Virus record (IMG/VR): IMGVR_UViG_3300047496_000087
Coordinates: 1-40,923 of that record
Strand: one strand, 5' to 3'
DNA length: 40,923 nucleotides
Source of the DNA: a virus
Shown here: in pieces, positions 17,217-40,923 of the stretch
Layout of the letters: every line of letters begins with the position of its first letter
Position numbering within the stretch: position 1 is the first letter of the stretch
Notes under the pieces: model-generated
What the model was told of the DNA's origin: nothing
Databases searched by the model: none
The model's input: only the letters and a program-made list of their open reading frames with translations
Translations under genes and position numbers: made by a program

Positions 17217-17223
17217 TGAATGT

Positions 17224-21619: not shown

Positions 21620-21624
21620 TCGAA

Positions 21625-21774: not shown

Positions 21775-21782
21775 AACAACTC

Positions 21783-24162: not shown

Positions 24163-24189
24163 AGCTTGATCCTTTTATAAAGAGTCGAA

Positions 24190-26898: not shown

Positions 26899-26945
26899 AA
26901 CACCCCCAAGATATCAGACTCTCTCACAAGTTGATGATCGTTCAT
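26895..26945 (-). pseudogene. Duplicated 3' end of the GroES-like gene: a 16-codon remnant ORF MNDHQLVRESDILGVL*
   Basis: About 48 nt are roughly 75-80% identical to 27139-27188, which encodes ...DNHQLVRESDILGVL* at the end of the GroES-like gene. ATGA overlaps occur at both ends. Confidence 0.7.
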
Positions 26946-27878: not shown

Positions 27879-27894
27879 AATCTTCCTTAAGCTA

Positions 27895-29109: not shown

Positions 29110-29134
29110 GATGTTCCTTTTTTAGTATTAATGT

Positions 29135-29512: not shown

Positions 29513-29693
29513 TGCTGTGATCCCATCGTTGTTCAAGTTTATCTATTATACCATTACACTGTGCAAGTTGAGCTTCTAAAGCTGGTCTTGCTAAAATGCG
29601 GAACTCATTTCTTTCTTCGCCACTGTCTATCTTTTTTATCATCTCTTGAAGCTTATATTGCTCTGATCGTAGCCGTGGAAGTAAATTGCTCAT
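29484..29693 (-). CDS. Small helical protein (69 aa)
   Basis: ORF with an RBS-like GAGGAATC immediately upstream of the ATG. Confidence 0.5.
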   Translation of the reverse strand: MSNLLPRLRSEQYKLQEMIKKIDSGEERNEFRILARPALEAQLAQCNGIIDKLEQRWDHSNEYDGYYTA

Positions 29694-29719
29694 GATTCCT
29701 CAAAGGGTAAGAATTAAAC

Positions 29720-30400
29720 TTATCCTTCTGATTGTACCACATTTTCTTCTAGTTGTCTTATTTCTTCCATCCATTCCTCAATCTCACGAGTGAACTTCTT
29801 CTTAGTCATAGCATCAAGTTCCTCCAAAAACCCCTTGCGCTCACTCTTCTTAGCTTCAATTTCTACAATAAGCATGAAATTTCTCTTAATCCACTCTCCT
29901 AATCTTTCTATTTTGTGATGAACTGGTTGCTTATCTAATTCAATAGGATGGTGATCTGGAACAATATAACTTTGCTGGTGAAGCAACTTTTTAGTGATTG
30001 TTTTATTGTCAAATTCTAAAGCATCGTAAACAACGGGGGTATTGGGATCTTCTTCAGAAAATCTATCTATGTTTAGAGTGGCACATATCGTTGAATAAAA
30101 TGCCCAATCTGGCTTTATCCCTCGATCTTTACACCAATTATTGAGGATGCCAATCATCCATTTAAAAGTATCTTTAACATTTGGGCGCGCTTGATATTGT
30201 TCATACCCATAAACAAGTGCTTCTTCTGGAAATGCAAGGAGCCTATAAGACTGATTTTCAGTAAAATACAATTCACCTCTAAAATTGAGCATGATTGGAG
30301 GAAAAATATTATCCCTACCCTTTTCACTTAAAATTAGATTTCTTGCAACATCAGTGCCTTCGTGTTTGTAAAACCATTGCTTCTGTTCTTGTGTTAGCAT
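29720..30400 (-). CDS. Hypothetical protein (226 aa); first gene downstream of the repeat-rich intergenic hub
   Basis: ORF with no recognisable motif. A role in replication initiation is suggested by position only. Confidence 0.55.
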   Translation of the reverse strand: MLTQEQKQWFYKHEGTDVARNLILSEKGRDNIFPPIMLNFRGELYFTENQSYRLLAFPEEALVYGYEQYQARPNVKDTFKWMIGILNNWCKDRGIKPDWAFYSTICATLNIDRFSEEDPNTPVVYDALEFDNKTITKKLLHQQSYIVPDHHPIELDKQPVHHKIERLGEWIKRNFMLIVEIEAKKSERKGFLEELDAMTKKKFTREIEEWMEEIRQLEENVVQSEG

Positions 30401-30454
30401 CTCATTTACCTTTTTGTGGGAATTCTTCTCTTTTTAAACTTGTTTAAATATCTA

Positions 30455-30635
30455 GGACCTTTCTTGATCATCTGGACCTCGCGTGCGCGCATATACGTAC
30501 GTGTGTGTCATGTACAAGAAGAAGGTCCGGAGAAGGTCCGGAGTTTTTAAAAAAACTAGGCAGATTAAAATACTCTCTACGTAGAAGAAGATATTAATAT
30601 CTTTAGTCTTATTCCGGAATCCGGAACACGCGCGC
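30455..30635. promoter_or_regulatory. Cluster of symmetric and repeated elements; candidate origin or control region
   Basis: GGACCT x2 (30455, 30474) is inverted relative to the tandem AAGGTCCGGAG x2 (30522-30543). A 29-nt perfectly alternating pyrimidine-purine tract spans 30480-30508. A 16-bp palindrome AAGATATTAATATCTT lies at 30588-30603. TCCGGAA x2 lies at 30613-30626, followed by CACGCGCGC. Confidence 0.45.
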
Positions 30636-30854
30636 AAAGCGTAATCACTTGGAATTGTCAATAGTTCTTTAGATTCGAGTTTGGTTGAGGTAAAAAGAGT
30701 AAAAGTGCCGTAGCATACAGCTTTTATTTGACTTTTGATTTGTGCATGGCATACTAAAGACATAATACAACTGCTCTCTAAAGTGTTGTGTTGGTTAAAG
30801 AACTTACCGCACTGCTTATTATCATGCCGTAAGTATCAAAATATATATTTGGAA

Positions 30855-30879
30855 GCTCAGGTCACACACCTGGGCTTTT
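30855..30879 (+). terminator. Terminator-like hairpin on the plus strand, upstream of the plus-strand gene
   Basis: Stem GCTCAGGT / ACCTGGGC (8 bp including one G.T), loop CACAC, followed by TTTT. It lies 44 nt upstream of the ATG at 30923. Confidence 0.4.
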
Positions 30880-30922
30880 GAATTTTCTAATCATTCAACC
30901 CCAGTATCGTAAAGGAAAATCC

Positions 30923-31195
30923 ATGAAAAATCTACTTATATTGTCATTATTTCCAGCAACACTCTGTGCCATGGAAGAAGAATTGAATAGAACTCCTAAT
31001 ACAAGTCATCTCTCATCCATCAAAAACAACCATCAACGTTCTCAAACACCCATCCAAACTGACCATGCAACATTAAAGCGCAGCGCTGCTATATGGAATG
31101 TCCATCAAGCATACATTGCTGAGCAATTCTCAGATCTTGCAGCACTGGCTAAATTTGATCATGATTCGTCAGAATTGACAGAACCTAAAAAGTAA
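30923..31195 (+). CDS. Secreted small protein (90 aa) with a signal peptide; lone plus-strand gene
   Basis: Start at MKNLLILSLFPATLCA|MEE..., preceded by an AAAGGAAAATCC RBS. A plus-strand terminator follows. Confidence 0.6.
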   Translation: MKNLLILSLFPATLCAMEEELNRTPNTSHLSSIKNNHQRSQTPIQTDHATLKRSAAIWNVHQAYIAEQFSDLAALAKFDHDSSELTEPKK

Positions 31196-31247
31196 TTACA
31201 ATCTTCGTTGATTGATAAGTGGCTTCATCCCACTATCTCTCCTTTTT

Positions 31248-31292
31248 TCCCCATGAAGACTTAAAACGCCGTCATGGGGATTATTTATTTTC
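31248..31292 (+). terminator. Rho-independent terminator (plus strand); also copy 1 of the early junction motif
   Basis: Stem CCCCATGA / TCATGGGG (8-9 bp), followed by ATTATTTATTTT. Confidence 0.6.
31261..31283 (-). repeat. Early-region junction motif, copy 1 (orphan, no gene downstream)
   Basis: Plus strand: ttaaaacgccgtcatggggatta. Minus-sense consensus: TAATCCCCA..ACGGCGTTT(T)AAGGA. Confidence 0.7.
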
Positions 31293-31715
31293 TATAAATA
31301 CTTTTATAAGTAAATCATCAAATTTCTTATCAATATTTTTAGGGAACTTAAGATTGAAATAATTCATAAACAAATCAATACGATTAAGATCATCCAATGG
31401 ATAGTTTGCTAAGGGATATTCCAATCTCATAAATAAATGAAATAACGACTCATTGTCTTCTTTTAATTGCATTAAAATATCATAAGCATGCGGGTAATGA
31501 TGCTGCATTAACTTATGAGTATTAGTTGCGATCAAGGATTTTTCATCCAATGACGCTGGTGAATCAATTCGCTTAGAACTTTTTAAAGCTTTCATAAACT
31601 TATAACCTAAAGATCTATATTGATCTCCAAGCATTTCATTATCTTCTTTCAGCTTCTTTATTCTCTGTTCATAAGAATTAATAATTTTATCAACATCAGA
31701 TTTCCAAACAATCAT
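31281..31715 (-). CDS. Early protein (144 aa), function unknown
   Basis: ORF preceded by junction motif copy 2, which supplies the RBS (TAAGGATAAAG before the ATG). Confidence 0.6.
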   Translation of the reverse strand: MIVWKSDVDKIINSYEQRIKKLKEDNEMLGDQYRSLGYKFMKALKSSKRIDSPASLDEKSLIATNTHKLMQHHYPHAYDILMQLKEDNESLFHLFMRLEYPLANYPLDDLNRIDLFMNYFNLKFPKNIDKKFDDLLIKVFIENK

Positions 31716-31723
31716 CTTTATCC

Positions 31724-31745
31724 TTAAACGCCGTTATGGGGATTT
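31724..31745 (-). repeat. Early-region junction motif, copy 2
   Basis: Plus strand: ttaaacgccgttatggggattt, located 8 nt 5' of the ATG in gene sense. Confidence 0.7.
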
Positions 31746-31762
31746 CTTTTATTCAGGAATAT

Positions 31763-32053
31763 TCATCTCGATCTTTTAACCGACTCAATTAGATCACCAA
31801 GATCTTTCCAACGTTCATTCAAATCATTCTTTTCTTTTTCTATTTTGAGTTGGGTTTCAAGTTCTTTAATGCGTTTTTCTTTAATAGAAATAAGTTCATG
31901 TGATTCCTTAAGATAAAGATTCTTTCTTAACCAATTAAAATAATCATATTCTTTATCTTCAAGCTCTTTAATTCTTTCATCTTGTTTTTCTATGACTTCC
32001 TGCAACATCATTATTGCTTTAGTCGCAGAAGTCTCCCATCCGTATATCTTCAT
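31763..32053 (-). CDS. Early coiled-coil protein (96 aa), function unknown
   Basis: ORF preceded by junction motif copy 3. Confidence 0.6.
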   Translation of the reverse strand: MKIYGWETSATKAIMMLQEVIEKQDERIKELEDKEYDYFNWLRKNLYLKESHELISIKEKRIKELETQLKIEKEKNDLNERWKDLGDLIESVKRSR

Positions 32054-32062
32054 TTTTATTCC

Positions 32063-32085
32063 TTAAACGCCAACACTGAGGATTA
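32063..32085 (-). repeat. Early-region junction motif, copy 3
   Basis: Plus strand: ttaaacgccaacactgaggatta. It contains the TAA stop of the upstream gene and the RBS of the downstream gene. Confidence 0.7.
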
Positions 32086-32376
32086 TTTTTGACTCCATAG
32101 GAGCAATCTAATTAATCCAAAGTATGACATATATTCGTCGCTATTAAGATGGCAACAATAACTAGCAAACTCTTCCCAATGAGGTTCTATATCTTTGGCA
32201 GCATCGACCATAACCTTATAAAGATCTTTAGGATCAACACTTTCCCATTGAATATGTTCCTTAATGAAATCTACTCTTGAGGTAAAGAATTGGTAGGGAT
32301 AGCCATATTTTTGTTTAGTATAAGGATAACATTCTCTTATATACTGCAACTTGTCTTTTATAATTTCAATCTTCAT
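32083..32376 (-). CDS. Early protein (97 aa), function unknown
   Basis: ORF preceded by junction motif copy 4. Confidence 0.6.
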   Translation of the reverse strand: MKIEIIKDKLQYIRECYPYTKQKYGYPYQFFTSRVDFIKEHIQWESVDPKDLYKVMVDAAKDIEPHWEEFASYCCHLNSDEYMSYFGLIRLLLWSQK

Positions 32377-32384
32377 CTTTATCC

Positions 32385-32410
32385 TTAAAACGCCGACACT
32401 GGGGTTATTA
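32385..32410 (-). repeat. Early-region junction motif, copy 4
   Basis: Plus strand: ttaaaacgccgacactggggttatta. Confidence 0.7.
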
Positions 32411-32411
32411 T

Positions 32412-32537
32412 TTAAATTACTATCGATTTAATCAGTAATATTAAACGACAAACACTAGCAAAAATGAAACAACCCATAGCTATTTTAAAACAAAGATAAG
32501 CTTTATCTAATTCATTTGAGCATTTGCACATCTTCAT
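32412..32537 (-). CDS. Possible small membrane protein (41 aa; below the ORF-track cutoff)
   Basis: MKMCKCSNELDKAYLCFKIAMGCFIFASVCRLILLIKSIVI fills an otherwise empty 164-nt gap. An AGGTG sits adjacent to the start. The C-terminus is hydrophobic. Confidence 0.3.
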   Translation of the reverse strand: MKMCKCSNELDKAYLCFKIAMGCFIFASVCRLILLIKSIVI

Positions 32538-32540
32538 CAC

Positions 32541-32741
32541 CTAGATGTTATGAATACATTCTTCTCGTGATGGACAATTTTTATGTCTATTCTTTATGAA
32601 GTTTCCCCCACCGAATTCTTCTACATTCTCACAGTGAACATCCAAACACATTATGTGTATATTATCCAATGATAAGTTTTTATATTTTTGCATAACATCC
32701 GAATATTTCTTTTTCATATTCTGGCAACTATCACAAATCAT
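32541..32741 (-). CDS. Small Cys-rich, zinc-finger-like protein (66 aa)
   Basis: Start at the ATG preceded by GGAAGGAATAGGG, 2 nt after the ERF stop. Translation: MICDSCQN...CLDVHCEN...HKNCPSREEC. Confidence 0.55.
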   Translation of the reverse strand: MICDSCQNMKKKYSDVMQKYKNLSLDNIHIMCLDVHCENVEEFGGGNFIKNRHKNCPSREECIHNI

Positions 32742-32743
32742 CC

Positions 32744-33391
32744 CTATTCCTTCCAAAACTTAATAGCGTTCAAACATTGCTTGACCGTAAGATCTGAAAG
32801 TTCTTTGACCTTGTTATATTCAAGAACTTTATCTTGAGAAAACTTAGGATTTTTGCTTTTGTTGATAAGATCGACTAATTTATCTAATTGTTCTTGATTG
32901 CAAAGAGCGTCTTGGCTTGATGGTTCTGCATACTTAGTCTTTTTCTCTTCAATATGATTTTGCTCCCCTTGGCCATCATCATCCTCATCCTCATCACGAG
33001 CGAATCCACAAAGAGATAATACACCCTCTTTCTTCATGTAAGTATTGGCTGATCCAATTCCTTGGTTGCCAGGCATCTCAGTAACAATATACGCTTCATC
33101 CTCTACCCATTGACCAGTAGGAGCATGGATAAGCCTTGTTACCATTATCTCCCTACCATCTTCTAATATTCTTTTACCATGCCATATCTTTACTCTGTGA
33201 GCCCTTAATCCGGGCCGGAGAGCAGCATAAATATCTTTTAATTTGGCATATTTATATTTCTTGTGACTATTCTCAGAAGTTTTCTCTACACCATCCCATA
33301 CTTCTTCAGCATTAAGTAGGGCTGCCATCAAGGCCCGTACATCATCAGACATATGCGGTGAGTTGCTTGGGCTAAATTCAGAAGGATTCAT
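32744..33391 (-). CDS. erf: ERF-family single-strand annealing recombinase (215 aa)
   Basis: KYKYAKLKDIYAALRPGL and GIGSANTYMKKEGVLSLCGFARDEDEDDDG parallel P22 Erf KYKYRSCEDILEGVKPLL and TGATSSYARKYCLNGLFGIDD. I prefer the ATG at 33391 (GAGGAAAAAT RBS). The alternative start is 33403. Confidence 0.7.
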   Translation of the reverse strand: MNPSEFSPSNSPHMSDDVRALMAALLNAEEVWDGVEKTSENSHKKYKYAKLKDIYAALRPGLRAHRVKIWHGKRILEDGREIMVTRLIHAPTGQWVEDEAYIVTEMPGNQGIGSANTYMKKEGVLSLCGFARDEDEDDDGQGEQNHIEEKKTKYAEPSSQDALCNQEQLDKLVDLINKSKNPKFSQDKVLEYNKVKELSDLTVKQCLNAIKFWKE

Positions 33392-33770
33392 ATTTTTCCT
33401 CATTGTTTATAATATGATCCATAACTTCCTTCATCTTATCGCTAGGAATACCCGTTTCTTGCATGGCTTGATATATCTTAGTGAAATCTCTTTTTAGATC
33501 TCTAAAAGTACATAGCCTTCTATCTAAAAATTCAAAGGCTGATCCAAAAGATAATATAAGAGCTGTATGCTGTTTAACCTTCTTATTCAATGATTCTTCA
33601 TGAGAAGGAGATCTATTTTCTTTGAGCTTGTTTATTTCTTGTGTAAGTTCATTTATTTTTTGTGCTTTCGCTACAACAATCTTATCAAGATGATTAACAG
33701 CATCTTGAATTCTACTATGATCCTGTTCAAAAACAGATTGACCGGCCAATAACTTATTTACAAACTTCAT
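33378..33770 (-). CDS. Early helical protein (130 aa), function unknown
   Basis: ORF with a GAGGAAATTAAAG RBS. Confidence 0.55.
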   Translation of the reverse strand: MKFVNKLLAGQSVFEQDHSRIQDAVNHLDKIVVAKAQKINELTQEINKLKENRSPSHEESLNKKVKQHTALILSFGSAFEFLDRRLCTFRDLKRDFTKIYQAMQETGIPSDKMKEVMDHIINNEEKYESF

Positions 33771-33960
33771 CTTTAATTTCCTCTAAATAATCCCTAATCT
33801 TCCTCACCGTCTTAAAACTCATCCCCTTCTTACTCTCAGGATCAAGCACATGCCCCATAGTAGTATGGGATAGCCCAACAAGCTTGGATAGCTCATGCAC
33901 TGATAGCCATCCATCAAAGTAAATCTTGATGATCGCATCTTTATAGTGCTTTTTGTTCAT
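33754..33960 (-). CDS. HTH DNA-binding protein (68 aa); first gene of the minus-strand block (Cro/regulator-like)
   Basis: WLSVHELSKLVGLSHTTMGHVL fits a helix-turn-helix pattern. It is adjacent to the divergent promoter region. Confidence 0.6.
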   Translation of the reverse strand: MNKKHYKDAIIKIYFDGWLSVHELSKLVGLSHTTMGHVLDPESKKGMSFKTVRKIRDYLEEIKDEVCK

Positions 33961-33974
33961 AGTAACCCTTTATA

Positions 33975-34002
33975 ATTATACACTTAGTATAACATAAATT
34001 AA
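33975..34002 (-). promoter_or_regulatory. Candidate leftward promoter
   Basis: Minus-sense TATAAT (plus strand 33975-33980) with a weak -35 TTAATT at 16-nt spacing. The -10 lies 14 nt upstream of the ATG at 33960. Confidence 0.3.
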
Positions 34003-34016
34003 CTTCATTGCAATAG

Positions 34017-34045
34017 TTGACATAGTTTAAATAGTATGCCATAAT
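34017..34045 (+). promoter_or_regulatory. Sigma70-like rightward promoter
   Basis: TTGACA (34017-34022), a 17-nt spacer, then CATAAT (34040-34045). It lies 45 nt upstream of the first plus-strand ATG. Confidence 0.6.
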
Positions 34046-34090
34046 AGTGTTAGTAGTTAATTAACCAATAACGTTTCTTAGGGGAACATT

Positions 34091-34246
34091 ATGAAAAAAC
34101 AATCATGTGGATGCTTTACGGAAGAAGAATTGATCGCTATGCATGAGCGGTCAGTGAGAGAGATGGAAAAAAGAAGAATTAAGACTCAGGAAGTGATTAA
34201 TGACCATAAAACAACTAGCAGCAAAACTACAAAAAGAGATTGATCT
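34091..34246 (+). CDS. Possible small protein (51 aa; below the ORF-track cutoff)
   Basis: AGGGGAACATT RBS before the ATG. Translation: MKKQSCGCFTEEELIAMHERSVREMEKRRIKTQEVINDHKTTSSKTTKRD. It overlaps the next gene by 47 nt. Confidence 0.35.
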
Positions 34247-34466
34247 ATCCATTGCTGAATTCAATAAAGGTCAGCAGAAGATCAAGGCTCTTTACGAACA
34301 AATTGAAGAAGTAGAAAAGGAAATGGCTGAGTTGGTATTTGACTTAGAGCCAGTAGAATCTATAGTTATTGCTCAAAATCCTACATTAGAGAAGCTATTT
34401 ACCACTTTAAAGAATGTCTACAAGGAGCATGATGACAAGACTAGAGCAACTGACAAGAGAGTTTGA
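34200..34466 (+). CDS. Coiled-coil protein (88 aa), function unknown
   Basis: AGGAAGTGATTA RBS followed by the ORF. Confidence 0.6.
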   Translation: MTIKQLAAKLQKEIDLSIAEFNKGQQKIKALYEQIEEVEKEMAELVFDLEPVESIVIAQNPTLEKLFTTLKNVYKEHDDKTRATDKRV

Positions 34467-34785
34467 TGAAGAACTAGCTAAGGTTAACACAGAATACATA
34501 GCCCTCTTTGATCAACTTGAGCCGTATAGAGGCAGAAAGTTGTCAGATGAAGAAGTAGCTACCAGCAATGACCTCATCAAGAGCATTCAGGTTAAATTCG
34601 GTGAGATGTATGCAGCATTCTATTTAATTGCTGTACGTCACAGCCATGCTGTTGCTATCACCAATGAGTTCACCACATTCTGTGAATCATTAGAAAAAGC
34701 AGGTTTCAAAAAACAGCCTGTTGAAAACGAAGTTAAAGATGGCGTGTGGCGTCCTAATGAATCACCCATTATTCTAACGGACTAG
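34414..34785 (+). CDS. Hypothetical protein (about 117-123 aa); start uncertain (34414, 34429 or 34432)
   Basis: ORF with several in-frame ATGs near AAGGAG. Confidence 0.55.
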   Translation: MSTRSMMTRLEQLTREFDEELAKVNTEYIALFDQLEPYRGRKLSDEEVATSNDLIKSIQVKFGEMYAAFYLIAVRHSHAVAITNEFTTFCESLEKAGFKKQPVENEVKDGVWRPNESPIILTD

Positions 34786-34851
34786 CCAAAACTGACCTTC
34801 TAGATATACTACAGACCAAAAAAGCTGTAGATACTCTAAAAAAGGTCACTA

Positions 34852-35535
34852 ATGGAACTCGCTCCACAAGAATACCGTTCACTTGAAATCAATCAGATAA
34901 TGATGGCTCTCGCTAAAGCTCAGGGTGCATACAAACCATTGGTAGCCAATGAAAAGGGCCCCAGAGGTATGTATGCCAACCTTGCGGCTATGATTGCATC
35001 AACTAGAGAAGCTTTATCAGGAAATGGTTTAGCATTCTACCAGTATGATGAGATCACCGACGATGGCGCTGGCGCCATTCTCATGAAGTCTATTATAGGC
35101 CATGAGTCAGGACAGTGGCTCAGTTCCATTGCCAGAATCGTTAAAATGGAAACAGAACGTGACACAGGCAGAATTGTTGAAGTCATTAGACGTAGACAGG
35201 CCATGATGTTGCTAGGAATTGCCCCATCAGAGAACGATCCTACCTTCTTTGATGACGATGGTGAGGAGCAAGCAGAATCGTTCGTTATAAGCCAAGTTCG
35301 TAAGCCTCGTACTACCAAGCCAGAAGTTAATAGAAATGATGTAGTCAATCCAGATCAGTATCAAGAATTGTTGATTGAATTGGAAGGATATGAAGATATC
35401 GCCAAAGATATTATGCAATGCTATAATATAGAAACCTTAGCCGATCTTCCACGAGAAGAATATCACAAGTCACTTATGAAAATACGTCGCATTAAGCGAA
35501 CACAAGAAGAGTACGAAAAACAGAAAAGTAGATAA
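34852..35535 (+). CDS. Second, divergent ERF-like recombinase (227 aa)
   Basis: INQIMMALAKAQGAY...GMYANLAAMIASTREALSGNGLAFYQ...IIGHESGQWL...RRRQAMMLLGIAPSENDPTFFDDDGEE follows the ERF motif order. It lacks the G.a.tY signature, so the call is weaker. Confidence 0.5.
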   Translation: MELAPQEYRSLEINQIMMALAKAQGAYKPLVANEKGPRGMYANLAAMIASTREALSGNGLAFYQYDEITDDGAGAILMKSIIGHESGQWLSSIARIVKMETERDTGRIVEVIRRRQAMMLLGIAPSENDPTFFDDDGEEQAESFVISQVRKPRTTKPEVNRNDVVNPDQYQELLIELEGYEDIAKDIMQCYNIETLADLPREEYHKSLMKIRRIKRTQEEYEKQKSR

Positions 35536-35572
35536 TATCGTTGTTGTAATCGAGTGTGACTACTTTTCTATC

Positions 35573-35611
35573 CCCCCCCGGTATCCCTAAGATACTTGGG
35601 GGGTTCGTTTT
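35573..35611 (+). terminator. Rho-independent terminator of the plus-strand operon
   Basis: Two-part stem, CCCCCC/GGGGGG plus GTATC/GATAC, followed by TTCGTTTT. It lies at the convergence with the minus-strand block. Confidence 0.75.
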
Positions 35612-35831
35612 AGCGCTTGCTCACATCCTCTAGTAGAGGTGTTTTTGCAGTAGGAACATACGGAGGCAACATTGGTGCAATATCTATTCCTGTCTCTGCT
35701 TCAACAACCACTTCCACTGCCTTTTCAAGGGCAGATTCAATAGGTGCAGGGCAATTACAACAGAACCGTGTAACGCCAATAGTCACAAGCGAGCCTGCGA
35801 TTATCAGTGATGCAACTAGAACAGCCATCAT
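35610..35831 (-). CDS. Small membrane protein (73 aa); last gene of the late block, a holin-like candidate
   Basis: N-terminal TM helix MMAVLVASLIIAGSLVTIGV followed by an acidic tail. No endolysin lies nearby, so the functional guess is weak. Confidence 0.35.
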   Translation of the reverse strand: MMAVLVASLIIAGSLVTIGVTRFCCNCPAPIESALEKAVEVVVEAETGIDIAPMLPPYVPTAKTPLLEDVSKR

Positions 35832-35851
35832 AGTAGCTCCTTCTGTAACGG

Positions 35852-37069
35852 TTACGCTAAAAATACCATTCCGTTAAAAGTTACTACGGTATTAGCTGCA
35901 AAACTTGTATTATCAACAGCTGATACGCTGCTACCCGCTGCATCTTGCGCAAGTAATTGCATCAAGCAGTTAGATCCATCTTCAACAACACGAGCACGTA
36001 TCCATGTTGCTGTTGCAAGAACCGTTGTTGCATCAATGCGTTCCCAACCAAAATCAGCAGTCGTATTCTCTACCGCAAGATCACGGTTGAACGGTATGCC
36101 CGAAATGGTAGCAGCTCCTGTAGAAGATCCCTTGCTACTTATAGAAAATTTACCTGAGAAAAAGCCAAGTTTACCAACTCTATAAGCGATCCCTTGTTGC
36201 ACGCCATAAACAATACCCGTTGATCCACCACCGAATTTAAGTACTGGCGTCCATGGTACTTCTGATCCAAAACTAACACCAATCCCAACAGTATTCCCTG
36301 CACCAGCAGTAAGTACCGTAACGCCATCAATAGTATCACCAACAATATTAAGAACACCGCCTGATGGAACAGCAGTACCAGTATCAGTGTGATAACTTGT
36401 CGCAATAGTTCCATCAGTTCCAATACGAAGTGTTGAACCACCAAGTACTGGCGAAGTAGTATGGATACCATTCACGCCAAATACATTCAAGTTACCTGCA
36501 GATGCTTCTGCAAAGTTACTATCATCAGTGGTGTAGGTAGTTGCTACTGAACCAGTCGTTGAAACAGTAAGTGTATGAGTTCCTGGGTTACCAACAACAT
36601 TGATGGTGGTTGTATTACCAACAACATCAATAATACCGTTGGTCGCAGGAAGTACATGTCCACCAGAGTTACCCTCAAGACCCTGGAATAACGCGCCACC
36701 ACCTGTATTATGGATTGTTAGTGTATTATTTAAAGGAGTTCCATCAACTGTAAGTCCAGTAATACCAGATTTCACATTGATATTGGCATTGTTGTCAGGA
36801 CTTACTGGGCCACCAGTATCACCAGTAAGTGTTTCAAGTCCACCACCCCATCTAATCCATTCAGCTAATTCACCCTTAGATTCCGTAGTACCTGCAAGTG
36901 ATACTAGAACCCAGGGTATTCTTGTTTCTTTATTAAGCCAAAGATCACCAATCTCATAATTGAGTGTATCGTATTGGTTTGGGTCTCTATCTTCAAATCG
37001 CCAATTTGGCGGTTGTATAGCTTTAGTTCCACGATAAGCAAGTGATTGTCCACCTAATCTATTTGACAT
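35852..37069 (-). CDS. Tail fibre protein (405 aa)
   Basis: N-terminus ...YRGTKAIQPPNWRFEDRDPNQYDTLNYEIGDLWLNKETRIPWVL. The C-terminal domain WTPVLKFGGGSTGIVYGVQQGIAYRVGKL...SSKGSSTGAATISGIPF is shared with 37083..38825. Confidence 0.8.
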   Translation of the reverse strand: MSNRLGGQSLAYRGTKAIQPPNWRFEDRDPNQYDTLNYEIGDLWLNKETRIPWVLVSLAGTTESKGELAEWIRWGGGLETLTGDTGGPVSPDNNANINVKSGITGLTVDGTPLNNTLTIHNTGGGALFQGLEGNSGGHVLPATNGIIDVVGNTTTINVVGNPGTHTLTVSTTGSVATTYTTDDSNFAEASAGNLNVFGVNGIHTTSPVLGGSTLRIGTDGTIATSYHTDTGTAVPSGGVLNIVGDTIDGVTVLTAGAGNTVGIGVSFGSEVPWTPVLKFGGGSTGIVYGVQQGIAYRVGKLGFFSGKFSISSKGSSTGAATISGIPFNRDLAVENTTADFGWERIDATTVLATATWIRARVVEDGSNCLMQLLAQDAAGSSVSAVDNTSFAANTVVTFNGMVFLA

Positions 37070-37082
37070 ATTATCTCCTTAG

Positions 37083-38825
37083 TTAAAGAACTATAGTTCC
37101 TGATAATGTTAGATCTGAAGTATTGGCAAAGGCCGTATCTTTAACGATGGTAATAGTTCCTGAAGATAAAGACTCAAAATTGAAACTTGTTCCATCATAT
37201 TCACATTCGATTGTGCCAGTTGTTGTTATTGATTTAGCTCTTAATGCTACTGCCGAAAGTCCCGTACTTGGACTAAAAGATAGCCCAGTAATAGTCGCAT
37301 TTCCAGTACTAGAACCTTTACTTGATAAAACTATTCTCATGCTAAAAGCAACTATATCACCTACACGACAATATGATCCAAGTTGTGTTGTATAAGTTAT
37401 ACCCGTTGTTCCACCACCGAACTTAAGAACCGGCGTCCATGAAGTACTTGCTACATAGGTAGATAAAATATTTGATCCACCATCAAAACTAACACCAGCA
37501 GCATATACATTTGCAGCAGTTCCCACATGTCCTGTACCATTTGGAGTCAGCATAATATTCGCATTGCCACCATTCGTAGTTAGTGTAAGAGCATTACTGC
37601 CAGACTGAATTGTCGTCTGGCTTGTTGAGGTTGTAGAGCCCACGGTCGTTGTCTTCGAGCCCGCTCCGGTGCCAACGTTCACGGTTGACCCAGTTGCATC
37701 TGTCGCCAGACTTACGGTCCCGCCATTTGCCGTTATTCCAGAGAATGTCAGAGTTTGAGTAGTCCCAGATCCCCCAAATGCCAGCCCGGTAGACCCACCA
37801 GTAAAAGTAAATCCTGAACCAGATAGTGCTCCACCTGTATCACCAGTAACGGTTATATTGCCCGCTGCTGATGCTTGGAAGGTTGGGTTGGCTGAGGTAC
37901 CGTTTGAAGTCAGAACATATCCTGTCGTTGCTGGAGATATAGAAGTCACTGCATTACTTGCACCTCCAACAAGTACATCATACTGAGTTACTGGGCTAGC
38001 GGTGAATGATCCTGTGCCATTACCAGTTAGTACGCCAGTAAGGGTAGTTGTCCCGGTTCCACCATGTGATGCAGCCAAGGTCCCTACCAATGTTTCTGTA
38101 GTGCCAGAACCAGAGAATGATAATCCTGTTGCCCCAGCTGTTAATGTGAATGCATTACCCGTAAGCGCGCCACCAGTATCACCAGTCAATGATATAGAGC
38201 TTGAAGGTGAAGCCTGGAAGCTGGGCAGCGATGCTACACCATTGCTGGTAAGCACATACCCCGAGTTGTTGATGCCAGAAGAGGCATATTGAATGGGGTT
38301 GGTTGTGCTTGTTCCGCCGCAGATAGGAGCATATGCAGTTGCACCTGATAGCACAATACCGCCCGATCCTGCCTGTAAGGTTGTCGTGCTGGTTCCATTG
38401 GTTGATCCGAGCACCGTGGTCTTGTTGCCAGCGCCTGTGGCAATATTAACTGTTGTTGGATTGCCATCAGTTGAGATAAATAGGTTCCCACTACCACTAT
38501 TGATATTGAGTCCACCATTGGTACTGGTAATGTTTAAATTGCCTGAACCACTTTGTATGGTGGTGCTGGAAGTTGAGTTGGTTGAGCCTACTGTTGTAGC
38601 ATGGGCATTGGCAGAGTTACCAACCGTTATCCCACCCGTACCACAATTGAGCGCTAGCGAACTTGCTGATGTAGATGACCCAATAGTCACCGTACGACCA
38701 GAAGTTGCTGTGGTGCCGATATTTACTGCGTAATCTATGTTATCTGTGCCTACGTTAAAGGTACCGCCGTTAAATGATACATCCGCAAGGACTATAGCAT
38801 TGTTCCAACTATTACGTGTGCTCAT
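37083..38825 (-). CDS. Tail fibre protein (580 aa)
   Basis: Its N-terminus is shared with 2158..3093. The internal module SISLTGDTGGALTGNAFTLTAGATGLSFSGSGTTETLVGTLAASHGGTGTTTLTGVLTGNG is shared with 3103..5802. Its C-terminus is shared with 35852..37069. Confidence 0.85.
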   Translation of the reverse strand: MSTRNSWNNAIVLADVSFNGGTFNVGTDNIDYAVNIGTTATSGRTVTIGSSTSASSLALNCGTGGITVGNSANAHATTVGSTNSTSSTTIQSGSGNLNITSTNGGLNINSGSGNLFISTDGNPTTVNIATGAGNKTTVLGSTNGTSTTTLQAGSGGIVLSGATAYAPICGGTSTTNPIQYASSGINNSGYVLTSNGVASLPSFQASPSSSISLTGDTGGALTGNAFTLTAGATGLSFSGSGTTETLVGTLAASHGGTGTTTLTGVLTGNGTGSFTASPVTQYDVLVGGASNAVTSISPATTGYVLTSNGTSANPTFQASAAGNITVTGDTGGALSGSGFTFTGGSTGLAFGGSGTTQTLTFSGITANGGTVSLATDATGSTVNVGTGAGSKTTTVGSTTSTSQTTIQSGSNALTLTTNGGNANIMLTPNGTGHVGTAANVYAAGVSFDGGSNILSTYVASTSWTPVLKFGGGTTGITYTTQLGSYCRVGDIVAFSMRIVLSSKGSSTGNATITGLSFSPSTGLSAVALRAKSITTTGTIECEYDGTSFNFESLSSGTITIVKDTAFANTSDLTLSGTIVL

Positions 38826-38843
38826 ACTATCTCCTTAAATGGA

Positions 38844-39029
38844 TTATTCTTTAGCAGTTCTATCAGCGTAGATAAATACTTTGTTCACATCATCCCATTT
38901 GTCGCCAATATCACAGCGGCCATCTTTGCAATGAACAACCATGTGTCCTCTTGGCGGAAGGAATTCCGCGCCTTCCCAAACAACCACATTTACTACTTCG
39001 CCATCTTTAATAATTGCATGTCGTGACAT
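38844..39029 (-). CDS. Small protein (61 aa) between the Gly-rich array and the fibre genes
   Basis: MSRHAIIKDGEVVNVVVWEG... ORF with an RBS. Function unknown. Confidence 0.55.
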   Translation of the reverse strand: MSRHAIIKDGEVVNVVVWEGAEFLPPRGHMVVHCKDGRCDIGDKWDDVNKVFIYADRTAKE

Positions 39030-39038
39030 AATAACTCC

Positions 39039-40010
39039 TTAGAAATATTCAATTACAATACAATATCCTGCTCCACCAGTTCCGCCTGCACCTGAGTTGG
39101 TACCGTTGAGGCTGCCGCCGCCTCCACCACCACCGCCGCCTGGTAGGCCACCTGTGCCACCTGCTCCAGCAGCAGCTCCTGCAAACTGTCCACCGCCACC
39201 GCCTCCTCCAGTTCCACCAGTAATAAGGCCACCCGTTGTAGTTATACCAGGATTGCCATCACCACCTCTAATAGTACCAGATTCAGTTCCGCCAGATCCA
39301 CCGGCGGTTATAGTAGATCCGTTCAAAGCATAGCAGTTAGCACCACCATTGCCACCAGCTCTTTCTGCTCCAGAATCGGCGCCACCTCCACCACCTCCTC
39401 CAGTTCCAAAAAGAGATCCTACAAATAAACTTGTAGTTACTGATGAATTAGCGGCAGTTGTTCCTGCTGTATTATTTCCCGCAGCGCCAGTAGCAGAATC
39501 TGTACCAACAGTTCCCGTATATTGCACTTGATAATAATCCCCTGATCCACCACCTATAGTAGTAGTCGTACCACCACCACCACGCGATGAAGAACCATTT
39601 CCTTTGGTAGAAATGTACCCTAAGGAAGTTAGCCCTGCAACGCTTCCTGCTGTACCATTAGTTGAGTTAGTGGTTTGAGCTCCACCTCCACCACCACCAT
39701 TACCAATAGTTACTGTTTCAGAAGGACCATAAAAAAATGCTGGAACAGTATAATAGGTAACTCCTCCTGCTGCACCACCTCCACCGCCTCCTGCTGCAGT
39801 AGTAAGACCTCTTCTTCCCGAACCACCACCAGAACCACCACTCCATAAAATGGTAGTTACGACACGCGTAGATGGGTTCTTAGTCCAAGTGCCACTGGCA
39901 GAAAAATTGGTAACTAGATAACTACCAGATATCGAACTTACAAGCCCACTGACATCCACAAGGTAGCCATCAGGAAGACCACCGGTACTAACTGTATTAT
40001 TGACTGACAT
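39039..40010 (-). CDS. Glycine-rich (polyglycine-run) virion protein, paralog C
   Basis: 323 aa with the same motif order as paralog A, ending GGGGGGGGSLNGTNSGAGGTGGAGYCIVIEYF. The 3' third is roughly 75-80% identical to paralog A at the nucleotide level by eye. Confidence 0.8.
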   Translation of the reverse strand: MSVNNTVSTGGLPDGYLVDVSGLVSSISGSYLVTNFSASGTWTKNPSTRVVTTILWSGGSGGGSGRRGLTTAAGGGGGGAAGGVTYYTVPAFFYGPSETVTIGNGGGGGGAQTTNSTNGTAGSVAGLTSLGYISTKGNGSSSRGGGGTTTTIGGGSGDYYQVQYTGTVGTDSATGAAGNNTAGTTAANSSVTTSLFVGSLFGTGGGGGGGADSGAERAGGNGGANCYALNGSTITAGGSGGTESGTIRGGDGNPGITTTGGLITGGTGGGGGGGQFAGAAAGAGGTGGLPGGGGGGGGGSLNGTNSGAGGTGGAGYCIVIEYF

Positions 40011-40021
40011 ATTACTTCCTT

Positions 40022-40923
40022 TTAAGAGTATTCAATGACTATACAGTAGCCGGCCCCACCAGTTCCACCAGCACCAGATGTTGTTCCATTTATAGAACCA
40101 CCACCGCCGCCTCCTCCTCCACCCGGTAGGCCACCTGTACCACCTGCCCCAGCAGATCCACCTGTTTTTTGACCACCCCCGCCACCTCCACCAGTACCTC
40201 CGGTAGGACATCCACCTGTTGTTAGATTGCCAGAATTACCATTACCACCGGCAATAGTTCCTGTTTCTATACCACCAGTACCACCGGCTATTATAGATGT
40301 ACCATTATTGTTATAAACAATATCACCACCTGGTCCACCAGCTCTTGCAGTAGAACTATTACCACCACCACCAGCACCCCCACCACTAGGGAACATTAAA
40401 TAAATTTGAGGTTTTGTTGCAGCAATTTGGCCACCAGTACCACCAGTGCTAAGTCCACCAGCACCCCCCTGTGCAGTAACAGATACAGTAGCCACACTAG
40501 AACCAGAAAAGAATTGAGCAGTGGCTCCGCCTGTATTTGTTCCGTTTACACCACCAGCACCATAACTCGTAGGCTGTGGACCAGATGCCAAATTTCCTAG
40601 ACTAGACACAGCGCTTGGATTTCCATTAATACCATCAGTTGTAGAGGATGATTGCCCAGAAGCACCACCACCACCGGCAGCTATAGTTACTGTTTCAGTT
40701 GAGTTAAATGATGATGCTGGTCCTGACCAATAGAGTACATTACCGGCGCCACCTCCAGAGCCACCTCCTGCAGCAGCAGTCAATCCTTGTCTACCAGACC
40801 CACCACCAGCCCCAGAATTCCATAATATGACTGAAACAGTTCTGGTGTTGGCACCTTTTGTCCAAGTTCCACTCCCACTAAAGGTAGTAGTAGTTACACC
40901 ACCAATAGTAGTAATTGAGCCAG
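40022..40923 (-). CDS. Glycine-rich paralog D, C-terminal part; truncated by the window end and continuing at 128..206 via the circular junction
   Basis: The open frame runs to the window end. The track start at 40783 is an internal Met. C-terminus: GGGGGGGGSINGTTSGAGGTGGAGYCIVIEYS. Confidence 0.8.
   Translation of the reverse strand, partial: GSITTIGGVTTTTFSGSGTWTKGANTRTVSVILWNSGAGGGSGRQGLTAAAGGGSGGGAGNVLYWSGPASSFNSTETVTIAAGGGGASGQSSSTTDGINGNPSAVSSLGNLASGPQPTSYGAGGVNGTNTGGATAQFFSGSSVATVSVTAQGGAGGLSTGGTGGQIAATKPQIYLMFPSGGGAGGGGNSSTARAGGPGGDIVYNNNGTSIIAGGTGGIETGTIAGGNGNSGNLTTGGCPTGGTGGGGGGGQKTGGSAGAGGTGGLPGGGGGGGGGSINGTTSGAGGTGGAGYCIVIEYS
40797..40923. repeat. Terminal overlap, identical to 1-127
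   Basis: See the first feature. Confidence 0.95.

What the first reader, a model, noticed from the sequence alone, without database searches (positions are those of the whole stretch)
39039..40923. Tandem array of four paralogous polyglycine-run proteins (continuing at 1-2150 across the junction), embedded between tail-fibre genes
In the circular genome four genes of 314-326 aa lie head to tail: 1206..2150, 216..1196, 40022..206 (wrapping) and 39039..40010. Each has its own AAGGAG-type RBS and spacers are 9-11 nt. All share the same skeleton: F.GSGT[WF]TK, GGGGGSGR, ETVTIG.GGGGG, GG.GG.ESGTI.GG.GN.G, a run of 8-9 Gly, and the C-terminus G.NSGAGGTGG.GYC[ILV]VIE[FY]. A central segment at roughly residues 120-200 is essentially unrelated between copies. 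Conserved glycine-rich motifs flanking hypervariable segments are the hallmark of T-even gp38-type adhesins such as phage S16 gp38, where the glycine runs form polyglycine-II helices. The ALK/LTK glycine-rich domain is similar. By that analogy, four interchangeable receptor-binding tips could be encoded next to five fibre shafts, which would be an unusual multivalent host-range cassette. I do not recognise this exact family.
Basis: partly seen in the sequence, partly recalled or inferred. Interest (0 to 1): 0.8.

Follow-up and report, generated by a model that had tools for sequence, protein, structure and literature searches.

The report
Four tandem polyglycine phage adhesin genes
An uncultured 40.8-kb phage carries four old, diverged tandem copies of a known glycine-rich tail "brush" domain protein, sitting among mosaic tail-fibre genes; this is an unusually large expansion of a known kind of host-binding module, not a new kind of system.

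Summary
Four co-directional genes (314, 326, 326 and 323 aa; about 30% Gly; 46-57% identical) lie head to tail with 9-11 nt spacers, between mosaic fibre genes of a complete circular phage genome. The wrapped copy only reads through once a 127-nt assembly duplicate is removed.

The family is recognisable. These are divergent members of Pfam PF21722 (Gly_rich_2), the polyglycine-rich or "brush" domain of phage adhesion devices. They are homologous to mycobacteriophage Bxb1 gp33, the tail wing brush (PDB 9D93). The confident AF2 model also resembles the cyanophage Pam3 fibre gp24. They are not members of the T-even gp38 family or of the ALK glycine-rich domain family.

The four copies form one clade, are saturated at synonymous sites, and differ mainly in three short blocks (13-36% identity, against 54-65% elsewhere).

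Relatives carry one or two copies. In all of them the gene is followed by a conserved ~60-aa beta protein (phrog_14370), whose best structural match is the domain of the Pam3 chaperone gp25 that grips the fibre, although that match is not significant. The N-terminal peptide (MATNNAIN type) is shared with fibres and other head proteins.

Best reading: these are self-standing receptor-binding heads, not caps on fibre tips. Verdict: new member of a known kind, moderate interest.

The parts
1206..2150 (-). Gly-rich paralog A (314 aa). It is the most divergent copy, with a different N-terminal peptide (MDIIQNPGYIEGG...) and without the ESGTI block.
   Evidence: ORF; alignment; PF21722 E 1.3e-4, 22.5 bits against a cut-off of 24.3; phrog_356 'minor tail protein' C-terminus E 3e-9.
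216..1196 (-). Gly-rich paralog B (326 aa). Layout: anchor peptide 1-32 (disordered in the model), then a beta-sandwich plus glycine lattice, with variable blocks at 141-150, 161-180 and 191-200.
   Evidence: AF2 model pLDDT 86.5, pTM 0.83. Foldseek to 9d93_Qb 2.7e-8 and 7ypx_A 1.9e-4. Conservation profile.
40022..40796 (-). Gly-rich paralog C, 3' part of the gene (C-terminal 257 codons plus stop). It continues at 1..206 across the circular junction.
   Evidence: The frame is restored only after the 127-nt duplicate is removed; PF21722 E 5.8e-3.
1..206 (-). Gly-rich paralog C, 5' part of the gene (start codon at 206; N-terminal 68 codons and the first two bases of codon 69).
   Evidence: the joined 981 nt give 326 aa beginning MAVNNSVNTGSL...
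39039..40010 (-). Gly-rich paralog D (323 aa), the last copy of the array.
   Evidence: phrog_8859 E 3.3e-7 and phrog_356 E 4.6e-4; identical in the independent assembly L044.
38844..39029 (-). Conserved 61-aa partner ORF (phrog_14370, motif VVNVVVWEGAEWLPP...IGD.WD). It is a five-stranded beta protein and a candidate minimal chaperone or adaptor for the Gly-rich heads.
   Evidence: It sits directly downstream of the Gly-rich gene(s) in nearly every related locus with enough sequence. The family has at least 157 members. AF2 pLDDT 90.7. The best TM-score hit is the Pam3 chaperone gp25, 7ypx_a, TMq 0.57, but E 3.5. No sequence-level support.
3103..5802 (-). Fibre F1 (899 aa). It has repeated G..GQVLTSNG...P.FQ-type units, and its C-terminal knob is shared with F2.
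   Evidence: F1 766-899 ~ F2 180-311 at 44%; F1 574-727 ~ F3 163-316 at 60%.
2158..3093 (-). Fibre F2 (311 aa). Its N-terminus is shared with F3 and its C-terminal knob with F1.
   Evidence: F2 1-200 ~ F3 1-206 at 56%. It starts MATRNSWNN, resembling the anchor peptide of the Gly-rich family.
37083..38825 (-). Fibre F3 (580 aa). Its N-terminus is shared with F2 and its C-terminal knob with F4.
35852..37069 (-). Fibre F4 (405 aa), the last gene of the minus-strand late block. Its C-terminal knob is shared with F3 (35%).
   Evidence: Convergent terminator-like sites lie at 35584-35639.
40797..40923 (.). 127-nt exact duplicate of window positions 1..127 (assembler overlap of a circular contig). 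It is not biological sequence content.

Best explanation
The four genes encode paralogous, self-standing receptor-binding or adhesion 'heads' of the phage tail. Each consists of three parts: a short N-terminal anchoring peptide (about 35 residues), a small beta-sandwich, and a lattice of extended polyglycine strands (the polyglycine-rich or 'brush' domain, Pfam PF21722). Three short variable blocks in the middle of the domain differ between the copies. The genes lie in the late structural gene block, together with four mosaic fibres. They arose by old duplications within this lineage, and each copy has been kept by purifying selection. This would give one 40.8-kb phage several different binding surfaces for host envelope components. 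The conserved 61-aa beta protein encoded just after the array probably acts on all four as a folding or assembly helper, in the way the N-domain of Pam3 gp25 grips gp24.

Shown here: homology, fold class, the paralogy pattern, the conserved gene pairing, and the C-terminal position of the domain across the family.

Inferred: incorporation into the virion, anchoring through the N-terminal peptide, binding through the variable blocks, and the chaperone role of the small ORF.
For: Homology to a solved virion protein. The family profile hits Bxb1 gp33 'tail wing brush' (E 8.6e-6). The shared motifs are GGGGGSGRR and the C-terminal G.GG.GY[VC]LIE[WF].

Fold. The AF2 model has pLDDT 86.5 and pTM 0.83, and is mostly ordered without helix or strand, plus about 8 strands. 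Foldseek gives 9d93_Qb 2.7e-8, 9d93_Qa 8e-8 and Pam3 fibre 7ypx_A 1.9e-4. There are 212 BFVD hits, including mycobacteriophage minor tail proteins and 'glycine-rich domain-containing' phage proteins, with TMq up to 0.75.

Pfam PF21722 matches 47 of 67 family members.

Position of the domain. In 145 of the 147 best-scoring homologues tabulated, out of 6,725 cluster representatives, the domain ends within 10 residues of the C-terminus. In 61 of them it follows more than 130 residues of fibre-like sequence. L018, L028 and L001 are fused examples. This is the position of a distal head.

N-terminal peptide. The MATNNAIN-type peptide is conserved across homologues and is also found on long fibres, short fibres and non-glycine heads of related cassettes.

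Age of the copies. The four copies are monophyletic (64% bootstrap). Synonymous sites are saturated and the longest shared exact DNA stretch is 32 nt, so all four have been maintained for a long time.

Variability. It is confined to B 141-200, alternating with conserved Gly blocks as in gp38 and Pam3 gp24 (PMC9608196).

Partner ORF. It is conserved in nearly every related locus with enough sequence, and its highest-TM structural match is the Pam3 chaperone gp25.

Literature. Pam3 gp24 is a virion fibre that mass spectrometry detected in virions, with host recognition assigned to its glycine-rich tip (PMC9608196). PGDs are treated as anti-receptor domains (PMC13243795, PMC13252515, 10.64898/2026.07.24.740622).
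Against: There is no direct evidence that any of the four proteins is in the virion, and no cultured relative: the portal is only 22-24% identical to known phages, and tblastn against GenBank phages finds nothing.

The window proteins individually fall below the Pfam cut-off.

I could not read the model coordinates, so polyglycine-II geometry and the surface position of the variable blocks are inferred, not measured.

The small ORF's resemblance to gp25 is not statistically significant (Foldseek E 3.5, probability 0.28; hhalign probability 0.08).

Outside S16 gp38, the binding role of PGDs is itself only proposed in the literature. In Bxb1 the region holding gp33 is thought to be dispensable, because the close relative Hami1 lacks it (PMC12646305).

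If one anchoring site is shared by seven or more proteins, there is an unresolved stoichiometry problem.
Confidence: 0.55

Rival explanations
1. Each Gly-rich protein docks non-covalently on the distal end of one of the neighbouring fibres (as S16/T2 gp38 does on gp37) and supplies that fibre's receptor specificity. That gives four interchangeable tips for the fibre shafts.
For: The genes are standalone and lie directly downstream of fibre genes, both in the window and in relatives. There are four heads and four mosaic fibres. Conserved Gly motifs alternate with variable blocks. The published structural resemblance of gp33 and gp24 to S16 gp38 also fits (PMC13243192, PMC9608196).
Against: No sequence or fold match to gp38/6F45. 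The N-terminus has no gp38-like helical attachment domain; it is a ~35-residue disordered peptide. That peptide is also carried by complete fibres and by other heads in related phages, which argues for a common anchoring point rather than fibre tips. The fibres end in their own conserved globular knobs, shared pairwise. Relatives with several fibres have only one Gly-rich gene.
Confidence: 0.2
2. This is the Bxb1 gp33-like accessory 'brush' model. The proteins are virion decorations that give low-specificity, reversible adhesion to envelope lipids or glycans. They raise the adsorption rate but do not determine host range, and they are individually dispensable.
For: The closest solved homologue is gp33. 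The Bxb1 region holding genes 30-35 is missing in the close relative Hami1 and is judged non-essential (PMC12646305). PGDs are proposed to contact lipid-rich envelope layers through exposed hydrophobic residues (PMC13243795, 10.64898/2026.07.24.740622).
Against: Four copies have been kept distinct under purifying selection, with divergence concentrated in three blocks. That fits diversified specificity better than a generic sticky surface. The variable blocks are dominated by Ser, Thr, Gly and Asn, with few hydrophobic residues. Nearly every related phage found through the partner ORF keeps at least one copy.
Confidence: 0.2
3. Non-virion assembly factors. As with T4 gp38 or C-terminal intramolecular chaperone domains, the Gly-rich proteins would help the neighbouring fibres to fold or trimerise and would then be released, so they would be absent from mature particles.
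For: Their position next to fibre genes is typical of Tfa/gp38-type chaperones. There is a weak hit of copy D to phrog_863 'tail fiber assembly' (E 0.021). The domain always sits at the extreme C-terminus in fused forms, which is also where cleavable intramolecular chaperones sit.
Against: Both solved structural relatives are components of mature virions or fibres (9D93 is the tail tip; Pam3 gp24 was detected in virions by mass spectrometry while its chaperone gp25 was not, PMC9608196). No Peptidase_S74 or Tfa domain was detected. The family has its own conserved small partner ORF, which is the better chaperone candidate.
Confidence: 0.05

Closest known systems
Mycobacteriophage Bxb1 gp33, 'tail wing brush' (PDB 9D93; Freeman et al. 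2025), and the polyglycine-rich domain (PGD) minor tail proteins of mycobacteriophages; Pfam PF21722 Gly_rich_2
   Same: Detectable sequence homology (profile E 8.6e-6). Shared GGGGGSGRR motif and C-terminal G.GG.GY.LIE[WFY] strand. About 30% glycine and a standalone size of 270-330 aa. Same fold by Foldseek (E 2.7e-8). Encoded among minor tail or fibre genes.
   Different: The host phage is an uncultured lineage of about 41 kb with no tape-measure, tube or sheath genes identified. It is not a siphovirus of Actinobacteria. The N-terminal anchoring region differs (MATNNAIN-type peptide, against the ~60-residue N-region of gp33). There are no gp30/gp31-like wing base or arm genes nearby. There are four tandem copies instead of one, and a conserved 61-aa partner ORF that Bxb1 does not show in the same position.
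Cyanophage Pam3 tail fibre gp24 with its chaperone gp25 (PDB 7YPX/7YFW; PMC9608196)
   Same: Fold-level match of the head (Foldseek E 1.9e-4, probability 1.0). The C-terminal strand motif is similar (GIIIVQYF ~ GYCLVIEFY, hhalign E 0.005). The gene order is head gene followed by a small gene. The small ORF's best TM-score hit is gp25 (TMq 0.57), matching the size and five-strand make-up of gp25's fibre-gripping N-domain.
   Different: No significant sequence homology. The window proteins lack the long N-terminal trimerising helix of gp24. The window partner ORF lacks the C-terminal helical trimerisation domain of gp25. Pam3 has a single copy.
Salmonella phage S16 / T2-type gp38 long-tail-fibre adhesin (PDB 6F45; Dunne et al. 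2018)
   Same: The design principle is the same: conserved glycine-rich motifs build an extended-strand lattice that carries variable segments. Both are standalone genes next to fibre genes. The literature judges gp33 and gp24 to resemble the gp38 PGII domain (PMC13243192, PMC9608196).
   Different: No sequence or Foldseek match. There is no helical gp37-attachment domain and no beta-helix middle domain. Docking on a fibre tip is not supported here.
ALK/LTK extracellular glycine-rich domain (TNF-like + PGII; PDB 7LS0; Pfam PF12810)
   Same: General architecture of a beta-sandwich plus a polyglycine lattice. Pam3 gp24 has been compared to it (PMC9608196).
   Different: Foldseek is only marginal (E 0.4, probability 0.06, TM 0.15) and there is no Pfam PF12810 hit. 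ALK/LTK are eukaryotic receptor kinases, an unrelated biological role.
Multi-RBP phages (for example CBA120 with four tailspikes, SP6/K1-5 with two, PhiK64-1 with many depolymerases); this comparison rests on general knowledge
   Same: Several different receptor-binding proteins encoded side by side. N-terminal anchoring modules are conserved while the distal domains vary.
   Different: There the RBPs are enzymatic tailspikes with beta-helix folds. Here they are small glycine-lattice heads plus non-enzymatic-looking fibres. Co-display has not been shown here.

Membership tests
Pfam PF21722 Gly_rich_2 / phage polyglycine-rich ('brush') domain proteins | Match to the PF21722 HMM above the gathering score (24.3 bits) | tested here: inconclusive
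   A scores 22.5 bits (E 1.3e-4) over HMM positions 2-223 of 226. C scores 17.1 bits. B and D have no hit. However, 47 of 67 members of the same tight family (40-56% identical to B) match at E<=0.01, best 7.5e-9, and many database homologues carry a precomputed PF21722 annotation.
Pfam PF21722 Gly_rich_2 / phage polyglycine-rich ('brush') domain proteins | Sequence homology to a structurally solved member (Bxb1 gp33, 9D93) | tested here: met
   The profile of A1 against all PDB sequences gives 9d93_Qa at E 8.6e-6 over about 100 residues. The C-terminal strand motif is also shared.
Pfam PF21722 Gly_rich_2 / phage polyglycine-rich ('brush') domain proteins | Fold: beta-sandwich plus a bundle of extended glycine strands | tested here: met
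   AF2 pLDDT 86.5. Foldseek gives 9d93_Qb 2.7e-8 and 9d93_Qa 8.2e-8, probability 1.0. There are 212 viral hits at E<=1e-3.
Pfam PF21722 Gly_rich_2 / phage polyglycine-rich ('brush') domain proteins | Component of the virion tail or adhesion device | not testable with these tools
   Only context is available: the genes lie inside the late structural block between fibre genes, and in fused homologues the domain is C-terminal to fibre-like sequence.
T-even gp38 adhesins (S16/T2 gp38) | Sequence homology to gp38 (Pfam gp38 family / PDB 6F45) | tested here: not met
   No gp38 Pfam family at E<=1. The profile search of all PDB sequences at E<=10 returns only 9D93 and an snRNP protein.
T-even gp38 adhesins (S16/T2 gp38) | Three-domain architecture: helical gp37-attachment domain, beta-helix, PGII sandwich | tested here: not met
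   The AF2 model has no helices of 4 or more residues and a disordered N-terminus 1-32. 6F45 is not among the Foldseek matches at E<=10.
T-even gp38 adhesins (S16/T2 gp38) | Conserved glycine-rich motifs alternating with hypervariable segments | tested here: met
   Entropy profile across 67 sequences: variable blocks at B 141-150, 161-180 and 191-200 alternate with conserved Gly blocks at 151-160, 181-190 and 201-220. Identity between paralogs is 13-36% in this region against 54-65% elsewhere.
Pam3 gp24-type simplified fibre with TFA-like chaperone | TNF-like plus glycine-rich distal domains | tested here: met
   Foldseek gives 7ypx_A at E 1.9e-4 and 7yfw_a at 1.8e-3, probability 1.0, TM 0.37-0.46. 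At the sequence level only the last strand aligns (hhalign E 0.005, probability 7%).
Pam3 gp24-type simplified fibre with TFA-like chaperone | Long N-terminal alpha-helical trimerisation and baseplate-docking domain | tested here: not met
   No helix is predicted. Residues 1-32 have pLDDT below 50.
Pam3 gp24-type simplified fibre with TFA-like chaperone | Dedicated chaperone encoded immediately downstream | tested here: inconclusive
   A conserved small ORF is always downstream. Its AF2 model (pLDDT 90.7, five strands) has gp25 (7ypx_a) as the hit with the highest TM-score (TMq 0.57, 23% identity), but E is 3.5 and probability 0.28. No profile similarity was found.
ALK/LTK glycine-rich domain (PF12810) | Sequence or fold match to the ALK GRD | tested here: not met
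   No PF12810 hit. Foldseek gives 7ls0_D at E 0.4, probability 0.06, TM 0.15.

The most novel reading that the evidence does not exclude
All four glycine-lattice heads and the four or five mosaic fibres are displayed together on one small tail. That would be 8-9 different receptor-binding proteins, taking about 30% of a 40.8-kb genome. They would be attached through a common short N-terminal 'plug' peptide (MATNNAIN type) that works as a universal connector for swapping heads and fibres across this large uncultured phage group. The 61-aa phrog_14370 protein would be a minimal, general chaperone for polyglycine-rich domains.
Probability: 0.2. Interest if true: 0.6.

Novelty: new member of a known kind. 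Interest (0 to 1): 0.36.

Why it matters
Polyglycine-rich 'brush' domains are only now being recognised as a widespread anti-receptor module of phages. This survey finds 6,725 cluster representatives (50% identity clusters) at E<=0.001. Apart from S16 gp38, their ligands and their mode of attachment to the virion are unknown.

This locus offers a natural series of four diverged heads in one genome, and a conserved two-gene unit (head plus a 60-aa beta protein) present in hundreds of uncultured phages. It also offers a candidate universal N-terminal anchoring peptide. These features make it a convenient system for asking three questions:
- How are such domains folded?
- How are they attached to the virion?
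- How are they diversified?

It is also a possible scaffold for host-range engineering. It does not reveal a new kind of system.

Tried and rejected
1. tblastn of copy B and of fibre F3 against GenBank phages found nothing. The low-complexity filter and the lack of cultured relatives probably both contribute.

2. The search for related loci with the Gly-rich alignment in IMG/VR matched 600 patterns but confirmed none, because the patterns were poly-Gly. I therefore used the 501-aa neighbour, whose loci lacked Gly-rich genes. The small-ORF DNA motif did work.

4. NCBIfam gave no hits.

5. The small-ORF profile hit cerebellin (5kca, E 2e-4). I rejected it because it is a 28-residue match (E 72 each) counted three times in a triple-fusion chain.

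6. I looked for sequence-level links to Pam3 gp25 and gp24 and did not find them.

7. I considered an invertible or shufflon-type switch, or recent gene conversion, and rejected both. The joined cassette has no inverted repeats, only 68-74% identical direct repeats, and synonymous sites are saturated.

8. Promoter and terminator scans inside the array are at chance level, and there are no tRNAs.

9. Exact look-up of the four proteins in the protein collection found nothing.

10. Freeman et al. 2025 (PMC12124961) is not held, so the function of gp33 is quoted from papers that cite it.

11. The plus-strand poly-Pro ORFs (for example 274..630 and 39097..39333) are mirror images of the Gly codons, not genes.
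Full report
**1. Observation**

The window is a complete circular phage genome. Its last 127 nt repeat its first 127 nt exactly, which is an assembler overlap, so the true length is 40,796 bp. Nearly all genes are on the minus strand. Terminase (24872..26242), portal (22129..24162) and virion proteins lead down to a fibre cassette that crosses the junction.

Spacers are 9, 9 and 11 nt, and the stop codon of each gene overlaps the next Shine-Dalgarno sequence (TAAGGAG).

An independent assembly from a different run is 100% identical over the 4.4 kb covering D, the small ORF, F3 and F4.

That region (B 141-200) is 13-36% identical between copies, against 54-65% elsewhere. It aligns almost without gaps and contains conserved glycine blocks.

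**2. What the proteins are**

Pfam gives full-length but sub-threshold matches to PF21722 Gly_rich_2: A scores 22.5 bits against a cut-off of 24.3. PHROGs matches the C-terminal 260 positions of phrog_356, 'minor tail protein'.

The large protein database returned 296 homologues, the best only 48% identical. Many sit on 33-41 kb contigs and many carry PF21722. Of a 67-sequence family alignment (A1), 47 members hit PF21722, best E 7.5e-9.

The A1 profile searched against all PDB sequences finds one real hit: mycobacteriophage Bxb1 gp33, 'tail wing brush' (9D93, E 8.6e-6). Reading gp33 from the Bxb1 genome shows that the similarity covers both ends of the domain: GGGGGSGRR near the start and G.GGDGYVLIEWE at the end.

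AF2 on B with this alignment gives a confident model (pLDDT 86.5, pTM 0.83). Residues 1-32 are disordered. About eight short strands are predicted, and most of the remaining chain is ordered without helix or strand, as expected for extended polyglycine segments.

Foldseek against the PDB gives the following:
- 9D93 gp33: E 2.7e-8 and 8.2e-8.
- Cyanophage Pam3 fibre gp24: 7YPX at 1.9e-4 and 7YFW at 1.8e-3.
- A second Bxb1 chain: E 0.02.
- ALK GRD: only marginal (E 0.4, probability 0.06).
- S16 gp38 (6F45): not listed.

Against BFVD there are 212 hits. They include 'glycine-rich domain-containing proteins' of uncultured phages (TMq up to 0.75), mycobacteriophage minor tail proteins, an Achromobacter phage tail fibre, and cyanophage and giant-virus proteins.

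The literature describes gp33 and the Pam3 fibre as PPII-helical bundles resembling S16 gp38 (PMC13243192). [quoted passage not shown] 'Polyglycine-rich domains (PGDs) / brush domains' are treated as a recognised anti-receptor module (PMC13243795, PMC13252515, 10.64898/2026.07.24.740622).

**3. Family-wide anatomy**

A HMMER scan of 1.84 billion representatives finds 6,725 proteins at E<=1e-3 and 365 at E<=1e-30. Among the 147 best that I tabulated, the domain ends within 10 residues of the C-terminus in 145. Of these 147, 45 are standalone (N-extension of 45 aa or less), 41 have 46-130 extra residues, and 61 are fused behind more than 130 residues, with total lengths up to 1,403 aa. Fused examples were also seen in fetched loci: L018 693 aa, L001 470 aa, and L028 about 688 aa. 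A domain that is always terminal and often follows fibre-like sequence is best read as a distal head.

Standalone members share a short N-terminal peptide, consensus MA[TV]NN[AS]IN. Window copies B, C and D have it (MSVNTGLNT, MAVNNSVNT, MSVNNTVST), while A has a different N-terminus.

In related phages the same peptide begins whole fibres (L005, 677 aa), short fibres (L001 and L014, about 200 aa) and non-glycine 166-168-aa heads (L018). The window fibres F2 and F3 begin MATRNSWNN and MSTRNSWNN. F1's start (MSQSGILKTSGGGGG) resembles another subset of the Gly-rich proteins (P0025: MSQAGNYIISGGGAGG).

I infer that this peptide is a modular anchor used by many cassette proteins. That favours self-standing heads over caps on fibre tips.

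**4. The neighbourhood**

The four fibres are mosaics:
- F2 and F3 share an N-terminal 200 aa (56% identity).
- F1 and F2 share a C-terminal knob (44%).
- F3 and F4 share another knob (35%).
- F1 and F3 share a shaft segment (60%).
- The 501-aa protein shares short segments with F2 and F3.

The fibres therefore have their own distal domains.

Directly after copy D lies a 61-aa ORF (38844..39029, phrog_14370, unknown function). Homologues of it follow the Gly-rich gene in every related locus examined (window against L018: 70% identity, E 1e-22).

Using its DNA motif as a probe, I found 6 viral and 17 metagenomic stretches. Nearly all of those with enough upstream sequence have a Gly-rich ORF immediately upstream. 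The family has at least 157 members, mostly on 32-41 kb contigs.

Its AF2 model is confident (pLDDT 90.7) and consists of five beta-strands. No PDB match is significant. The match with by far the highest TM-score (TMq 0.57, 23% identity, E 3.5, probability 0.28) is chain a of 7YPX. [quoted passage not shown]

Two adjacent genes thus find the two chains of one solved complex. That is suggestive, but the profile comparisons are negative, so the chaperone role remains a hypothesis.

**5. Evolution of the array**

In a neighbour-joining tree of the 67 sequences, the four window copies form one clade (bootstrap 64/100).

At the DNA level the conserved parts are only 60-77% identical. Where the amino acids are identical, the codons match in only about 30-60% of cases, even in the C-terminus, which is about 80% identical at the protein level. 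The longest shared exact DNA stretch is 32 nt. The joined cassette has no inverted repeats.

The duplications are therefore old, each copy is under purifying selection, and there is no sign of recent gene conversion, of an inversion switch or of a shufflon.

Related phages carry one copy (most loci) or two (L016, L024, L031/L032, L037). Four is the maximum among roughly 20 distinct loci.

Across the family, variability concentrates in B 141-150, 161-180 and 191-200. These blocks alternate with conserved glycine blocks and coincide with the lowest pLDDT. They are rich in Ser, Thr, Gly and Asn, with few hydrophobic or charged residues.

**6. Mechanism**

Best-supported reading (confidence about 0.55): these are four paralogous virion-borne adhesion or receptor-binding heads. 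Each is made of an anchor peptide, a beta-sandwich and a polyglycine lattice with variable blocks. They are co-expressed with four mosaic fibres from the late gene block, and a shared small beta protein helps them fold or assemble.

Rivals:
- gp38-like caps on fibre tips (0.2).
- A generic gp33-like accessory brush that improves adsorption without setting host range (0.2).
- Non-virion assembly factors (0.05).

Virion incorporation, the anchoring site, the oligomeric state and the ligands are all inferred. Multimer modelling and coordinate-level analysis were not possible with the tools available here.

**7. Novelty and verdict**

The domain class, its Pfam family, a solved homologue in a virion and its presumed role are all already described. 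What is particular here:
- A four-fold tandem expansion of standalone heads in a small uncultured phage. The whole host-recognition cassette takes about 30% of the genome, and the four genes alone take 9.5%.
- The tight, previously unannotated pairing with phrog_14370.
- The shared N-terminal peptide.

I class this as a new member of a known kind, of moderate interest (0.36). The most novel reading still open has a probability of about 0.2: co-display of 8-9 receptor-binding proteins through a universal plug peptide, with a minimal dedicated PGD chaperone.

Noticed in passing
window 40797..40923 = window 1..127: An exact 127-nt terminal direct repeat, which is the k-mer overlap of a circular assembly. 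The true genome is 40,796 bp. Any feature that crosses the junction must be read after the duplicate is removed, otherwise copy C appears frameshifted.
   Followed up: yes
window 38844..39029 (-); L018 10946..11137, L016 11011..11247, L014 10894..11190, L002 10990..11436: A conserved ~60-aa beta protein (phrog_14370, unknown function) is always encoded directly downstream of the Gly-rich gene(s). At least 157 homologues exist. Some have C-terminal extensions of 30-90 residues, and L020, L028 and L036 have two tandem copies.
   Followed up: yes
window 2158..5802, 35852..38825, 7254..8759 (-): The four fibre genes are mosaics that swap N-terminal, shaft and C-terminal knob modules pairwise. The 501-aa upstream protein shares short segments with F2 and F3. 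None has a Pfam hit. F1 has an odd hit to phrog_2647 'head decoration' (E 4e-16).
   Followed up: partly
L005 13880, L001 12123 and 12719, L014 9397, L018 11137 and 11679; window F2 and F3 starts: An N-terminal peptide of the MATNNAIN type heads many different proteins (long fibres, short fibres, Gly-rich heads and non-glycine 166-168-aa heads) in the fibre cassettes of this phage group. It may be a universal anchoring 'plug'.
   Followed up: partly
window 6602..7195 (-): An HNH endonuclease gene (phrog_1872, E 4e-30) sits inside the structural block, between the 501-aa protein and the fibre cassette.
   Followed up: no
window 5812..6165 (-) and L016 12225..12572: A 117-aa protein upstream of fibre F1 has a homologue (115 aa, same N-terminal motif LRSLAFG.IS) that lies directly after the second Gly-rich gene in L016. 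It therefore travels with the cassette, and its function is unknown.
   Followed up: no
L030, L031, L032 (contig JGI24890J29729_1000041, 113,464 bp): The same locus (two Gly-rich genes plus the small ORF) occurs three times on one 113-kb contig. This is probably a concatemeric assembly of a phage of about 38 kb.
   Followed up: no
window 274..630 (+), 39097..39333 (+), 39349..39531 (+): Long poly-proline ORFs on the plus strand are the antisense image of the glycine codons (GGN/NCC), not genes. The Gly-rich genes have 47-49% GC against 41.2% for the genome, for the same reason.
   Followed up: yes
window 22129..24162 (-) and the whole genome: The portal is only 22-24% identical to any cultured phage; the best matches are podophages of Rhizobium, Paracoccus, Pseudomonas and Ralstonia. 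No tape-measure, tube or sheath genes were recognised and there are no tRNAs. This is an uncultured lineage, probably podovirus-like, with many 32-41 kb relatives in metagenomes. The host is unknown.
   Followed up: partly
window 34852..35535 (+): An Erf-like single-strand annealing protein is one of the few plus-strand genes. It converges on the end of the fibre cassette, with terminator-like hairpins at 35584-35639.
   Followed up: no
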